DNA of 64,000 bases. Origin: Escherichia coli (GTDB lineage Bacteria > Pseudomonadota > Gammaproteobacteria > Enterobacterales > Enterobacteriaceae). The stretch lies in NCBI RefSeq assembly GCF_030013595.1, contig NZ_CP122768.1. One strand, 5' to 3'. Position numbers: made by a program. Below are positions 12,001 to 15,000 of this stretch, piece by piece (positions within the stretch are counted from its first letter, which is position 1; the number at the start of each line of letters is the position of its first letter).

Positions 12001-15000
12001 CTTAACAGCATTCAGTTTGACGAGAAATTTACCGGGCAGCTACTGGTCCATGTGGAGAACGGGCGCATAGTGCGTAATTACAACCTGCCGGATGGTGCAA
12101 TTGCCGGAAGCGTTGAAGCATTGCTGGAACTGGCAGAACGTGCGCGACTGATTAAGCCGTTAACGAGCCATCACGATGATGATCTGCATTTTACCGGACG
12201 CATGGTGAGTCACTACGAAAACGGTGTCGAGGTATCCCGCGAACGTCTGCGTGATGATTGCTGTTTCGGCACACTGCCGGAATTTATCGAATTGCTGACC
12301 GATTGCGGTTATCAGGTAATTCAGAGCAAGACGCAGGAGTAAAAAACCATGAAAAAGAAAAATTCTGGCTTTACTGCCAGCGGCCCCGCTCGGCCTGAAA
12401 TCAGACACGGCGATATTTACCGCGACACCAGACGCGGGGGACGAGTGGTTATTCGTCACGTTACGCCAGGCAATATCACCTACCGCCGCGAGGCTTACGA
12501 ATATGACTGCGTAATGCCGCGCCGTCAGTTTGAGCGTGATTTTATTCTGGTGGAAAACAAACAACAGGCGGTGGCGAGACGTGCAGCCACGAATATTAAA
12601 AAAATCCGGGCAATGTTGGTTGCGGGAGGTAAGAAGTGAAAAACGCACCGAATTTGAAATATCAGCCGAAGGATAAATTCACTGAGGTTATCATTTTTGC
12701 CGGGACGGATGCTTACGCCCATGCCCAACACTGGATTGAAAGCGAAGGACGAAAACATGGCGATAACGTGCCACCCGTTTATCTGGGGCCAAAGCAACTG
12801 GCAGACCTGGCGAATATCCGCATTGTCGACGATGAACGCCGCTTTGCGCGTGTTTATATCGCGGGGGAGATAGAGCCAATCCAGATCAACGCTATCGCTG
12901 AAAAACTGGCGCTGGCTGGCGTACAGGAGGCGAAATTATACAAAGGCATCACCGACCGGGAGCCGGAGAACTGGCGCGATTACCTGCAACGGTTACGCGA
13001 ACAGGCTGAGCGCGGAGAAATTCTGTCAGGAAGGACCGAGAAAAAACACAAAATATCTCTTTCCAGAATGGCGGACAGCCAAAGGGCAAAACTTTTAGCT
13101 GAACGATTTCAGGATGTAGCAATGAATCAGGAGAGTGAGGTTGTCCACGTCTGGCGCGATGATTTTTGGGTTCCGGTAAGCACACTGGATCTTAGTCGTG
13201 AAATGGTGGCTATTTACGAAGAAAACGGAACAGCGTTTAGCCGGAGAGCAATAAGCAATGCAGTGGATGCTTTAAAAGTTATGGCCAGGCCAATGGGGGA
13301 GCCGTCAGGTGATTTATTGCCGTTCGCTAATGGCGTGTTTGACCTGAAAACTGGCGAATTTTCCCCGCACTCGCTGGATAACTGGATCACCACGCATAAC
13401 GGCATTGAGTACACGCCACCAGCACCAGGGGAGAACATCCGCGACAACGCGCCAAACTTTCATAAATGGCTTGATCACGCTGCAGGAAAAGACCCGCGAA
13501 AGATGATGCGTATATGCGCTGCGCTGTACATGATTATGGCTAACCGGTACGACTGGCAAATGTTTATTGAGGCCACAGGAGACGGCGGGAGCGGCAAGAG
13601 CACATTTACGCACATAGCCACCCTTCTGGCAGGGAAACAGAACACGGTAAGCGCCGAAATGACATCGCTTGATGATGCTGGCGGGCGTGCACAGGTTGTC
13701 GGAAGTCGTCTTATTGTCCTGACAGACCAGCCGAAATATACAGGCGAAGGATCGGGAATCAAGAAAATAACTGGCGGCGACCCCGTGGAAATTAACCCGA
13801 AATATGAGAAGCGTTTCACAGCAATTATCAGGGCTGTCGTGCTGGCAACAAACAACGTGCCGATGATATTCACCGAACGGGCCGGAGGCGTTGCACGTCG
13901 ACGTGTAATTTTTCAGTTCGATAATATTGTAAGGGAGGCCGAAAAGGATAAAGAATTACCGCAAAAGATAGCGGCAGAAATACCTGTCATTATTCGTCGA
14001 CTGCTTACTAACTTTTCAGATCCAGAAAAAGCACGAGAATTATTGCTTGATCAGCGTGACGGTGCCGAAGCTCTGAAAATAAAACAGGAAACTGATCCTG
14101 TCATTGGGTTATGTGCGGCGCTTGCATTTCTTGACGAACCGCATGGAATGATGATGGGAGGCGGTAAGAGAACAGTTGACCTTAACCCACGTACAAGTCT
14201 GTACAGGCTTTATCTTGCCTTTATGGAGTACATAGGCAAAGAAGAAAAATTAAGTGTTAATGATTTTGGTAAGGCCATGAAGGCGGCTGCAAGAGAATAT
14301 GGAGCTGAATATCTGACCAGAGGTTTTAAAGGACGAACACAAACTAACGTTATAAGAACGGAGAGAACCGAGGAATTTTTATAAGAGTAATGCCTGCAAC
14401 AGGTAGACGGGTAGATATTGGGTAGATGCTAGTTTTATGGATGCCTACCCGCTGAATCCCTTGCGCCACAAGGGATTCAGCGAAATAGGTAGATAGGGTA
14501 GACAATATCTCGCTTAAAAACTTTTTTACGCAGCGAAAGGAAAATACAGGTTAGAGAATGGAGAGTTAAAAGAAAGTCACTTTTACTATCTACCCTATCT
14601 ACCTAATAGATAAAAGTTGTTTTTTATCATTGTGTTAAGTGGGTAGATAACCGTTTCTTTGTTGTCTACCTGTTATCTACCTTGTCTACCCATAAGATGA
14701 AAGTACCGGATACGCCGTGAAGGTGCAGGCAGTGAAGCCCTGGTTATCGCATGTACCAAGATGAAGGATGCGGAGGAACTGAAAGAAATGGCTTGCGATT
14801 TGCGCGAGGTTGAGCTTTTCAAGGATGAAGGCGGGGAGTTAATCACGTCGTTGGTGCTGGAGGATAAGCCCCGCCCACCCGTTGAACTGGAGCGCATCGA
14901 GTACGCTGCTAACAAGACAGAGAATCACGACGCGCTATGGGGCTGTATCCGTTCACGCACACAGCGCGGCGATAAATGCACTATCCCGTTGTTGCGCGAT

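What the first reader, a model, noticed from the sequence alone, without database searches (positions are those of the whole stretch)
14400..14692. Iteron-type replication origin directly downstream of the primase/helicase gene
About 12 copies of GGTAGAT in both orientations flank an AT-rich core, together with a perfect 12-bp-stem palindrome (GCTGAATCCCTT-GCGCCAC-AAGGGATTCAGC). The position right after the P4-family primase gene matches pri-ori modules of satellites and PICIs.
Basis: partly seen in the sequence, partly recalled or inferred. Interest (0 to 1): 0.45.

Follow-up and report, generated by a model that had tools for sequence, protein, structure and literature searches.

The report
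Replication origin of a phage satellite
This 290-base stretch is the replication origin of a phage-satellite island (PICI) in E. coli: twelve copies of a six-base motif where the island's own helicase most likely docks. It is a known kind of element, but this island is a chimera that also carries a second, orphaned origin.

Summary
Eleven exact GGTAGAY motifs and one degenerate copy lie in window 14402-14690, against 0.03 expected. They form inverted sets around an AT-rich centre, starting 18 bp after the stop codon of a 582-aa gene.

The gene encodes a D5/P4-alpha-type SF3 helicase. Its C-terminal winged helix is homologous to the P4 origin-binding domain (PDB 1KA8), and the closest solved structure is the SaPI5 PriRep helicase. 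EcCICFT073 is the E. coli PICI whose pri-ori segment was shown experimentally to replicate. It has 11 copies of the same GGTAGA core after its 71%-identical gene.

In islands whose origin is only about 80% identical, all 12 cores are invariant. Across 83 homologues, 45 have such an array directly downstream, and the iteron sequence changes with the wing of the winged helix.

Three corrections apply:
- The perfect palindrome is specific to this lineage.
- The "primase" domain is a TOPRIM fold that lacks the conserved catalytic residues.
- The helicase, DNA-binding domain and origin form a swapped cassette. It replaced the core of a RepA-type helicase gene and left a gene remnant (14701-15108) and an orphan AAAGTGAGG origin (15109-15500).

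Verdict: a new member of a known kind, of modest interest.

The parts
12636..14384 (+). Initiator gene (582 aa, 'pri' or pri-rep). It has an N-terminal TOPRIM-like domain, a D5_N plus SF3 helicase core, and a C-terminal winged-helix origin-binding domain.
   Evidence: Pfam finds D5_N, DUF5906 and Pox_D5. TIGR01613 passes its cut-off. PDB 7OLA and 1KA8 match by sequence. The AF2 model has pLDDT 88. Foldseek's best match is SaPI5 PriRep, followed by poxvirus D5/E5.
12636..13024 (+). N-terminal domain (about aa 1-127 of the 130 codons). It has a TOPRIM-like fold and is a module shared with RepA-type helicases. The left homology block of the cassette swap ends at 13024.
14091..14363 (+). Codons 486-576: the winged-helix origin-binding domain. 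The wing hairpin is residues 561-570 (LTRGFKGRTQ); the KGR.QTNV motif shared by most GGTAGA-class relatives spans 565-572.
   Evidence: The match to 1KA8, the P4 origin-binding domain, has E = 7e-8. The secondary structure comes from the model. The wing motif tracks the iteron class.
14402..14427 (+). Iteron set A: three GGTAGAY copies, start-to-start spacing 8 and 11 bp.
   Evidence: The cores are invariant in CI5 and TUM9757.
14444..14449 (-). Degenerate 12th iteron (CCTACC). It is a perfect TCTACC in relatives.
14450..14482 (.). Perfect palindrome with 14-nt arms and a 5-nt loop. It sits in a GC-rich spacer whose motif CTGAA...GCGCCA is conserved, although the perfect stem is not.
   Evidence: I3. 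CI5 and TUM9757 have three uncompensated mismatches. The covariation test is not significant. No T-run follows it and no terminator was called.
14488..14503 (+). Iteron set B: two copies 9 bp apart, pointing toward the centre.
   Evidence: I1: 22-nt inverted repeat with set C, 91% complementary.
14504..14587 (.). Central spacer, moderately AT-rich. It holds the conserved A/T tract AAAAACTTTTTT at 14516-14527.
   Evidence: The tract also follows the last iteron pair in CFT073 and P4 crr.
14588..14603 (-). Iteron set C: two copies, inverted relative to set B.
14604..14641 (.). The most AT-rich and least stable segment, and the likely unwinding element. Its counterpart lies between the same iteron sets in CFT073, MS200-1 and vB_KppS-Ant.
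   Evidence: Nearest-neighbour dG is -31 to -32 kcal/mol per 30-mer, against a window mean of -39..
14642..14690 (.). Right-hand sets: one + copy (14642-14648) and set D with three - copies (14664, 14675, 14684).
14696..14713 (.). Right junction of the cassette. It is a short stretch (core AGTACCGGATA) shared by the right end of the primase-type origin (CI5) and the interior of the RepA helicase gene (L002).
14701..15108 (+). 5'-truncated remnant of a RepA/AAA_25 helicase gene (aa 336-470, 95% identical, reading frame intact).
   Evidence: PGAP annotates it as a pseudogene in cq9. BLASTP. No AAA_25 core exists in the window.
15109..15500 (.). Orphan second iteron origin. It has 7 exact AAGTGAGG copies plus 3 one-mismatch copies in both orientations and is AT-rich. 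It is cognate to the replaced RepA-type initiator.
   Evidence: The same array follows the intact RepA helicase gene in L002.

Best explanation
Window 14402-14690 is the vegetative replication origin of a Gram-negative phage-inducible chromosomal island (PICI) integrated between abgR and smrA.

The proposed mechanism is inferred by homology with SaPI Rep proteins and P4 alpha. The island's 582-aa protein is an SF3 (D5/P4-alpha type) hexameric helicase. Its C-terminal winged helix recognises the GGTAGA iterons. Protomers bind cooperatively to the inverted iteron sets on either side of the AT-rich centre. Two hexamers self-load there, melt the AT-rich DNA and unwind outward.

Because the N-terminal TOPRIM-like domain lacks the conserved catalytic residues, priming is probably done by the host primase.

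What is shown here:
- the anatomy of the array;
- the homology of the protein domains;
- identity of the iteron core with that of EcCICFT073;
- conservation of the cores;
- covariation of iteron sequence with the wing of the binding domain;
- co-transfer of the array with the helicase-OBD segment.

What is inferred: binding, melting, double-hexamer loading and the source of primers.
For: 1. Anatomy. Twelve iterons start 18 bp after the stop codon, in inverted sets with a common dyad centre around an AT-rich region. This is the layout described for SaPI and Gram-negative PICI origins (PMC9371898, PMC6092414).

2. Protein. It has D5_N, DUF5906 and Pox_D5 domains. The OBD is homologous to P4 alpha's 1KA8 (E = 7e-8). 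The best structural match is SaPI5 PriRep 7OLA (E = 7e-19).

3. Experimental precedent. EcCICFT073, whose pri-ori segment drives plasmid replication and loses that ability on ori deletion (PMC6092414), has 11 GGTAGA copies in the 288 bp after its 71%-identical pri gene.

4. Conservation. In CI5 and TUM9757 the origin is about 80% identical, all 12 cores are invariant, and the spacers and the seventh base vary.

5. Family-wide pattern. A 6-mer repeated at least 6 times occurs in 45 of 83 downstream windows. Control windows give 2 of 83, 0 of 71 and 0 of 72.

6. Covariation. Iteron classes are GGTAGA, GGTGAAC (the P4 type), ATGAACAC, GGTATACAC and GGTAGGG. Most GGTAGA-class proteins share the wing motif KGR.QTNV (CFT073/MS200-1, Aeromonas L047 and Yersinia L034 have variants of it), and the other classes carry different wing sequences. 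L019 and L017 differ at 5 of 105 OBD residues, two of them in the wing. L005 and L074 have a GTGAAC-type OBD backbone plus a 5-aa wing insertion, and their iterons are GGTAGAC.

7. Cassette. The segment holding helicase, OBD and iterons (13025 to about 14701) is flanked by sequence 96% identical to a RepA-type island.

8. P4 precedent. In P4, crr with iterons in both orientations lies 46 bp after the alpha gene.
Against: - There is no experimental test of this array or this protein.
- The half-arrays are in the opposite order to EcCICFT073 and most relatives. Function in this arrangement is therefore extrapolated, although the order is shared by CI5 and TUM9757.
- The island carries a second iteron array 420 bp downstream. 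'The' origin is assigned by cognate-initiator logic, not by measurement.
- P4 shows that an iteron cluster next to the alpha gene can be a cis-acting accessory site (crr) rather than the start point.
Confidence: 0.88

Rival explanations
1. The array is a crr-like accessory site. It is bound by the initiator and required in cis, but replication actually starts at another site, as in phage P4, where ori lies 4.5 kb from crr.
For: P4's crr occupies the same position, 46 bp after the alpha gene, with iterons in both orientations. The protein's OBD is homologous to P4 alpha's.
Against: Only one GGTAGA cluster exists in the island. The only other copy nearby is a single one at 9437. In EcCICFT073 the pri-ori fragment alone replicated a plasmid (PMC6092414). 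SaPI and PICI origins are single sites of this layout (PMC9371898).
Confidence: 0.06
2. The array is mainly a regulatory or terminating element. Initiator binding, or the palindrome, would control read-through from pri into the downstream ProQ/PerC genes, and replication function would be absent or secondary.
For: The array lies between two co-directional gene blocks. A perfect 14-bp palindrome is present. Iteron-binding initiators commonly autoregulate in plasmids (general knowledge).
Against: No terminator or promoter consensus was found in 14200-15700 apart from one unrelated site. The palindrome has no T-run and is not conserved. The homologous EcCICFT073 region behaves as an origin (PMC6092414). 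There is no Rfam match.
Confidence: 0.03
3. The array is an inactive relic. The island is a decaying chimera and no longer replicates autonomously.
For: The island is a recombinant with a truncated RepA gene and an orphan origin. One iteron is degenerate. The hybrid form occurs in only 5 of 5426 complete E. coli genomes.
Against: The initiator ORF is intact and 94% identical to those of CI5 and TUM9757. Eleven of 12 cores are perfect and invariant across origins that are about 80% identical, which indicates purifying selection.
Confidence: 0.03

Closest known systems
EcCICFT073 pri-ori replicon (E. coli CFT073 PICI; Fillol-Salom et al. 2018, PMC6092414)
   Same: It has the same GGTAGA iteron core, with 11 copies against 12 here. 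The array lies directly after a 71%-identical initiator (83% in the helicase core). The same sub-blocks are present: --, AT, +, --- and ++, -, GC-rich spacer, ++, A/T tract. The island type is the same, with int, an AlpA-type HTH regulator, Icd-like, DUF4222 and pri.
   Different: The two half-arrays are in permuted order: X-Y in CFT073 and Y, 83-bp spacer, X here. The OBD is only 59% identical. The spacer holds a different palindrome (TTACTGGC/GCCAGTAA). CFT073 has SSB and capsid genes downstream, where this island has a RepA remnant, an orphan origin and ProQ/PerC.
SaPI origins and Rep/PriRep self-loading helicases (SaPIbov1, SaPI1, SaPI5; Qiao et al. 2022, PMC9371898)
   Same: The origin lies immediately 3' of the initiator ORF. 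It has 6-12 short iterons, half on each side of an AT-rich centre, with at least 2 per side in opposite orientation. The initiator is an SF3 helicase with a C-terminal winged helix. 7OLA is the best structural match.
   Different: Sequence identity is only 17-19%. SaPI iterons are 5-6 bp of unrelated sequence. The host is Gram-positive. SaPI5's N-terminal primase region is of a different type from the short TOPRIM-like domain here.
Phage P4 alpha protein with its ori and crr (type I iterons TGTTCACC)
   Same: The helicase and OBD are homologous: 40% identity over aa 142-578, and 1KA8 matches. crr lies 46 bp after the gene, with iterons in both orientations followed by an A/T tract. The iterons are related in form: GGTGAACA against GGTAGAYA.
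   Different: The iteron sequence differs. P4 needs two separated sites (ori and crr), whereas one cluster is present here. P4 alpha has a zinc finger and a TOPRIM domain with the EGYATA and DRD motifs, and these are missing here.
Iteron plasmid origins (pSC101, RK2, R6K, F)
   Same: Repeated initiator-binding sites lie next to an AT-rich unwinding region, and the initiator uses winged-helix DNA binding.
   Different: Plasmid iterons are 17-22 bp direct repeats. Those origins have DnaA boxes and depend on host DnaB loading. Here the motifs are 6-7 bp in inverted sets, there is no DnaA box with one mismatch or fewer in 14385-15574, and the initiator is itself the helicase.

Membership tests
PICI/SaPI-type iteron origin (cognate to a Pri/Rep self-loading helicase) | Located immediately 3' of the initiator gene | tested here: met
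   The first iteron lies 18 bp after the stop codon at 14382-14384.
PICI/SaPI-type iteron origin (cognate to a Pri/Rep self-loading helicase) | 6-12 short iterons, far above chance | tested here: met
   There are 11 exact copies and 1 degenerate copy in 290 bp, against 0.028 expected.
PICI/SaPI-type iteron origin (cognate to a Pri/Rep self-loading helicase) | Two sets of iterons flank an AT-rich region, with at least two per side in opposite orientation | tested here: met
   Sets A and B (+) face sets C and D (-). The dyad centres are 14546.0 and 14545.5. GC is 0.27-0.35 between them.
PICI/SaPI-type iteron origin (cognate to a Pri/Rep self-loading helicase) | The initiator is an SF3 helicase with a C-terminal winged-helix DNA-binding domain | tested here: met
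PICI/SaPI-type iteron origin (cognate to a Pri/Rep self-loading helicase) | Iteron sequence is specific to, and co-varies with, the initiator's DNA-binding domain | tested here: met
   Five or more iteron classes are seen among 83 homologues. Most GGTAGA-class proteins share one wing motif and the other classes carry different wings, and there are two natural near-isogenic switches.
PICI/SaPI-type iteron origin (cognate to a Pri/Rep self-loading helicase) | Supports initiator-dependent autonomous replication | not testable with these tools
   This has been shown only for the homologous EcCICFT073 pri-ori segment (PMC6092414).
Gram-negative PICI (host element) | Rightward, unidirectional genes for integrase, an AlpA-type HTH regulator and pri, in a small island at a specific att site | tested here: met
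   The cq9 annotation is 100% identical over the DNA compared (the 376-bp and 2,901-bp queries). It shows int, HTH, AntA, Icd-like, DUF4222, pri, ProQ and PerC between abgR and smrA, about 11-12 kb in all. Helper dependence was not tested.
Phage P4 ori/crr system | Type I iteron TGTTCACC | tested here: not met
   The iteron here is GGTAGA/TCTACC. TGTTCACC arrays are found after other homologues such as L006 and L014.
Phage P4 ori/crr system | Two separated iteron clusters (ori and crr), both required in cis | tested here: not met
   There is a single GGTAGA cluster in the island.
Phage P4 ori/crr system | Alpha protein with an active zinc-finger and TOPRIM primase domain | tested here: not met
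   There is no zinc finger. Ala22 is invariant where P4 has the Glu of IAEG, and no DxD is conserved. The fold is nevertheless TOPRIM-like.
Iteron plasmid origin | 17-22 bp direct repeats plus DnaA boxes | tested here: not met
   The motifs are 6-7 bp in inverted sets. No DnaA box with one mismatch or fewer lies in 14385-15574.

The most novel reading that the evidence does not exclude
The island may be a working two-origin chimera rather than a simple recombinant.

On this reading the replicon is built from three independently exchangeable parts:
- a catalytically degenerate TOPRIM adaptor domain, which serves both SF3 and RecA-type (AAA_25) helicases;
- a helicase joined to a winged-helix domain;
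- that domain's cognate iterons.

The retained AAAGTGAGG origin still has all its iterons intact and is 96% identical to functional copies. It could therefore be fired in trans by a co-resident RepA-type PICI. Alternatively, the retained RepA C-terminal fragment could bind it, producing cross-talk or interference between satellites.

A corollary is that the wing hairpin of the P4-alpha-type binding domain encodes a readable specificity code for the central bases of GGT-NN-AC iterons.
Probability: 0.12. Interest if true: 0.55.

Novelty: new member of a known kind. Interest (0 to 1): 0.3.

Why it matters
The origin marks the island as a probably replication-competent phage satellite. Its iteron class (GGTAGA) predicts which initiators can drive it, and therefore which satellites are compatible or compete.

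The comparative results could be useful beyond this locus in three ways:
- They give a simple rule for annotating origins after P4-alpha/D5-type initiator genes. A repeated 6-mer was found in 45 of 83 cases.
- They provide natural specificity switches that point to the wing of the binding domain as the determinant of iteron choice.
- They show that satellites exchange helicase, DNA-binding domain and origin as one unit, at a domain boundary inside the gene.

None of this changes the current understanding of PICI replication.

Tried and rejected
- Palindrome as a conserved hairpin (priming signal or cruciform). I aligned the spacer from 12 GGTAGA-class origins and counted pairs. 63.7% of cells were paired, against 60.8 +/- 2.3 in shuffles, and 64 of 500 shuffles reached the observed value. 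RNAalifold did not recover the stem. The result is not significant. A few compensatory changes appear in the outer stem of the Xenorhabdus copies, so partial structure cannot be excluded.
- Palindrome as an intrinsic terminator. No T-run follows it and the scan called nothing there.
- Known RNA family in 14000-16000. Only sub-threshold miRNA noise appeared, over the inverted repeats of the second array.
- Sigma-70 promoters in the array: none found.
- DnaA boxes: none with one mismatch or fewer in either array.
- Residue columns that perfectly separate GGTAGA-class from GTGAAC-class OBDs. Window residues 503, 564 and 573 qualify. This is suggestive only, given relatedness and an indel in the wing.
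- I did not determine whether strain cq9 carries a co-resident RepA-type island. One search shows a second matching place in that genome.
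Full report
**Observation**

GGTAGAY occurs 11 times between 14402 and 14690 and only 6 times in the remaining 63.7 kb. At the outside rate, 0.028 copies are expected in 293 bp (P about 2e-25).

A twelfth copy at 14444-14449 is degenerate here (CCTACC) but is a perfect TCTACC in relatives.

The copies form the following sets:
- A: three + copies at 14402-14427.
- B: two + copies at 14488-14503.
- C: two - copies at 14588-14603.
- One + copy at 14642.
- D: three - copies at 14664-14690.

The outer pair of sets (A and D) and the inner pair (B and C) share one dyad centre, at 14546.0 and 14545.5.

Between the sets the DNA is AT-rich, with GC 0.27-0.35. The least stable 30-mers lie at 14581-14640.

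The palindrome is real and slightly longer than stated, with 14-nt arms and a 5-nt loop at 14450-14482.

**The neighbouring gene**

ORF 12636-14384 (582 aa) ends 18 bp before the first iteron.
- It has D5_N, DUF5906 and Pox_D5 domains.
- It passes TIGR01613, 'phage/plasmid primase, P4 family'.
- It matches P4 alpha at 40% identity over residues 142-578.
- Residues 486-576 match PDB 1KA8, the origin-binding domain of P4 alpha (E = 7e-8). Residues 225-437 match 7OLA.

An AlphaFold model built on 49 homologues (pLDDT 88) shows three parts. There is an N-terminal alpha/beta domain (17-125), then a disordered linker, then the helicase. The protein ends in a winged helix whose hairpin is residues 561-570.

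Foldseek puts SaPI5 PriRep first (E = 7e-19) and the poxvirus D5/E5 hexameric SF3 helicases next.

- The family has an invariant Ala where P4 alpha has the Glu of its IAEG motif.
- No DxD motif is conserved.
- There is no zinc finger.

'Helicase with an origin-binding domain' is therefore solid. 'Primase' is doubtful.

**Context**

The window matches E. coli cq9 at 100% identity over the two stretches queried (14385-14760 and 12300-15200). The annotation there shows a typical Gram-negative PICI between abgR and smrA. Its genes are integrase, an HTH (AlpA-type) regulator, an AntA/Bro protein, Icd-like, DUF4222, pri, ProQ/FinO and PerC.

[quoted passage not shown] It also reports that the EcCICFT073 pri-ori segment maintains a plasmid, and that maintenance falls when pri or ori is deleted (PMC6092414; see also PMC10111431).

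SaPI Rep proteins are self-loading SF3 helicases. Their C-terminal winged helix binds 6-12 iterons placed immediately after the rep ORF. At least two iterons lie on each side of an AT-rich centre in opposite orientation, and two hexamers are thought to load there (PMC9371898).

**Comparative evidence that the array is the cognate site of this protein**

1. I located EcCICFT073 itself (NC_004431, 1377930-1388700). Its pri product is 71% identical to the window protein. The 288 bp after it hold 11 GGTAGA copies. Nissle 1917, MS 200-1 and strain 537-20 show the same core.

2. CI5 and TUM9757 have a 94%-identical protein and an origin only about 80% identical. In the three-way alignment every one of the 12 GGTAGA cores is invariant. 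The spacers, the seventh base and even the spacing within pairs change.

3. A scan of species-representative genomes returned 80 loci. In 45 of 83 homologues, a GC-containing 6-mer occurs at least 6 times in the 450 bp after the stop codon. Control windows gave 2 of 83 (inside the gene), 0 of 71 and 0 of 72.

4. The repeated motif differs between lineages but stays within one family, roughly GGT-NN-AC:
   - GGTAGA: 18 loci, in Escherichia, Xenorhabdus, Pantoea, Yersinia, Aeromonas, Kluyvera and Raoultella.
   - GGTGAACA, the P4 type: 11 loci.
   - ATGAACAC: 7 loci.
   - GGTAGGG: 3 loci.
   - GGTATACAC: 2 loci.

5. The iteron class follows the wing of the winged helix. Most GGTAGA-class proteins share KGR.QTNV; CFT073/MS200-1 (KGV), Aeromonas L047 (KGY) and Yersinia L034 (NGR) carry variants of it. 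P4-type proteins have K.GIRSNV or related wing sequences.

6. Two near-isogenic natural switches stand out. L019 (GGTATACAC) and L017 (ATGAACAC) differ at 5 of 105 C-terminal residues, two of them in the wing. L005 and L074 have the OBD backbone of the GGTGAAC group plus a 5-residue wing insertion, and their iterons are GGTAGAC.

7. In P4 the annotated crr, with type I iterons in both orientations, begins 46 bp after the alpha gene.

**The cassette**

Sister islands such as CFSAN018748 (L002) carry a 470-aa 'helicase RepA family' protein (AAA_25 domain) in place of pri. An array of AAAGTGAGG iterons follows it.

BLAST shows the following relationships:
- Window 12334-13024 is 96% identical to L002.
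- Window 14702-15800 is 96% identical to L002.
- The stretch between them has no counterpart in L002.
- That stretch is 92% identical to CI5 up to 14712.

At the protein level, residues 1-127 of the window protein are almost identical to the N-terminus of the L002 RepA helicase. Residues 336-470 of that helicase survive, in frame, at 14701-15105 (95% identity).

The unit that was exchanged is therefore D5_N, SF3 helicase, winged helix and the GGTAGA array. It was cut at the domain linker on the left. On the right it was cut within a short shared stretch with core AGTACCGGATA, at 14696-14713.

The exchange left two things behind:
- A truncated RepA gene.
- That gene's origin at 15109-15500, with 7 exact AAGTGAGG copies and 3 near copies, against 1 exact copy elsewhere in the window. 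No cognate AAA_25 core exists anywhere in the window.

The array travels with the helicase-OBD segment and not with the N-terminal domain. This is independent support for the functional link between array and binding domain.

The hybrid form is rare. It occurs in 5 of 5426 complete E. coli genomes.

- The perfect palindrome is specific to this lineage. CI5 and TUM9757 have three uncompensated mismatches. CFT073 has a different 8-bp palindrome in the same spacer. A pair-count test over 12 origins is not significant. What is conserved in the spacer is a GC-rich motif, CTGAA...GCGCCA.
- The palindrome is not a terminator.
- No Rfam family, promoter consensus or DnaA box lies in the array.

**An unexplained detail**

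The two half-arrays are in the opposite order to almost all relatives. I call the halves X and Y:
- X is --, AT, +, ---.
- Y is ++(+), -, GC-rich spacer, ++, A/T tract.

The order is X-Y in all of these:
- CFT073, Nissle and MS 200-1;
- Xenorhabdus, Raoultella and Aeromonas loci;
- loci of the other iteron classes.

In the window, CI5 and TUM9757 the order is Y, then 83 bp, then X. An arrangement in the same Y-then-X order, built from iteron pairs, is seen in strain 537-20. These are the islands with ProQ/PerC downstream.

**Verdict**

The finding is a correct identification of a PICI replication origin. It has the same iteron as the one experimentally validated E. coli example. It is a new member of a known kind.

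The mechanism is inferred by homology. The winged helix binds GGTAGA, two SF3 hexamers self-load on either side of the AT-rich DNA, and priming is probably by the host.

The more interesting material lies around the finding: the chimeric two-origin island, the shared degenerate TOPRIM module, and the covariation of wing and iteron.

Noticed in passing
window 15109-15500: A second iteron-type origin. It has 7 exact AAGTGAGG copies plus 3 one-mismatch copies in both orientations and is AT-rich. The same array follows intact RepA/AAA_25 helicase genes in sister islands. Here it is orphaned: the window holds no cognate helicase core.
   Followed up: yes
window 14701-15108: A 5'-truncated RepA helicase gene (aa 336-470, 95% identical to L002, frame intact). 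A possible 115-aa ORF starts at ATG 14761 but has no Shine-Dalgarno sequence. PGAP calls the gene a pseudogene in cq9.
   Followed up: yes
[not shown]
   Followed up: partly
window 14402-14690 versus L013 11997-12284 (CFT073) and most other loci: The two half-arrays of the origin are circularly permuted relative to EcCICFT073 and nearly all relatives. The permuted order is shared with CI5 and TUM9757, and 537-20 has the same Y-then-X order built from iteron pairs. It goes with a ProQ/PerC downstream module. How it arose is unexplained.
   Followed up: partly
L015/L019 versus L017/L018; L005/L074 versus L006/L028/L030/L037: These are natural iteron-specificity switches. Changes of 2-4 residues, or a 5-aa insertion, in the wing of the origin-binding domain coincide with a change of iteron: ATGAACAC to GGTATACAC, and GGTGAACA to GGTAGACA.
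   Followed up: partly
window 14450-14482 and the homologous spacers (alignment A5): A GC-rich spacer motif (CTGAA...GCGCCA) is conserved between the lone minus-strand iteron and the last plus pair across E. coli, Xenorhabdus, Raoultella and Aeromonas. Hairpin potential is partly retained, including two compensatory changes in Xenorhabdus, but the test is not statistically supported.
   Followed up: partly
window 10644-11984: A 446-aa ORF on the + strand shares its stop codon with the short Icd-like gene that PGAP annotates. PGAP instead places two small minus-strand genes (YlcI/YnfO family and a hypothetical) under its 5' part. The long ORF is probably spurious.
   Followed up: no
E. coli cq9 genome NZ_CP031546 (H16): A second place in the same genome matches window 12300-15200. 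It could be a co-resident related island, possibly one that supplies a RepA-type initiator in trans for the orphan origin.
   Followed up: no
L040-L077 (many Xenorhabdus and Photorhabdus P4-like loci): About 38 homologues, mostly ~775-830-aa alpha-type proteins with a zinc finger and full TOPRIM, have no strong repeat array in the 450 bp after the gene. Only about 4 GATGTA copies are seen. Their origin is presumably elsewhere or of another form.
   Followed up: no
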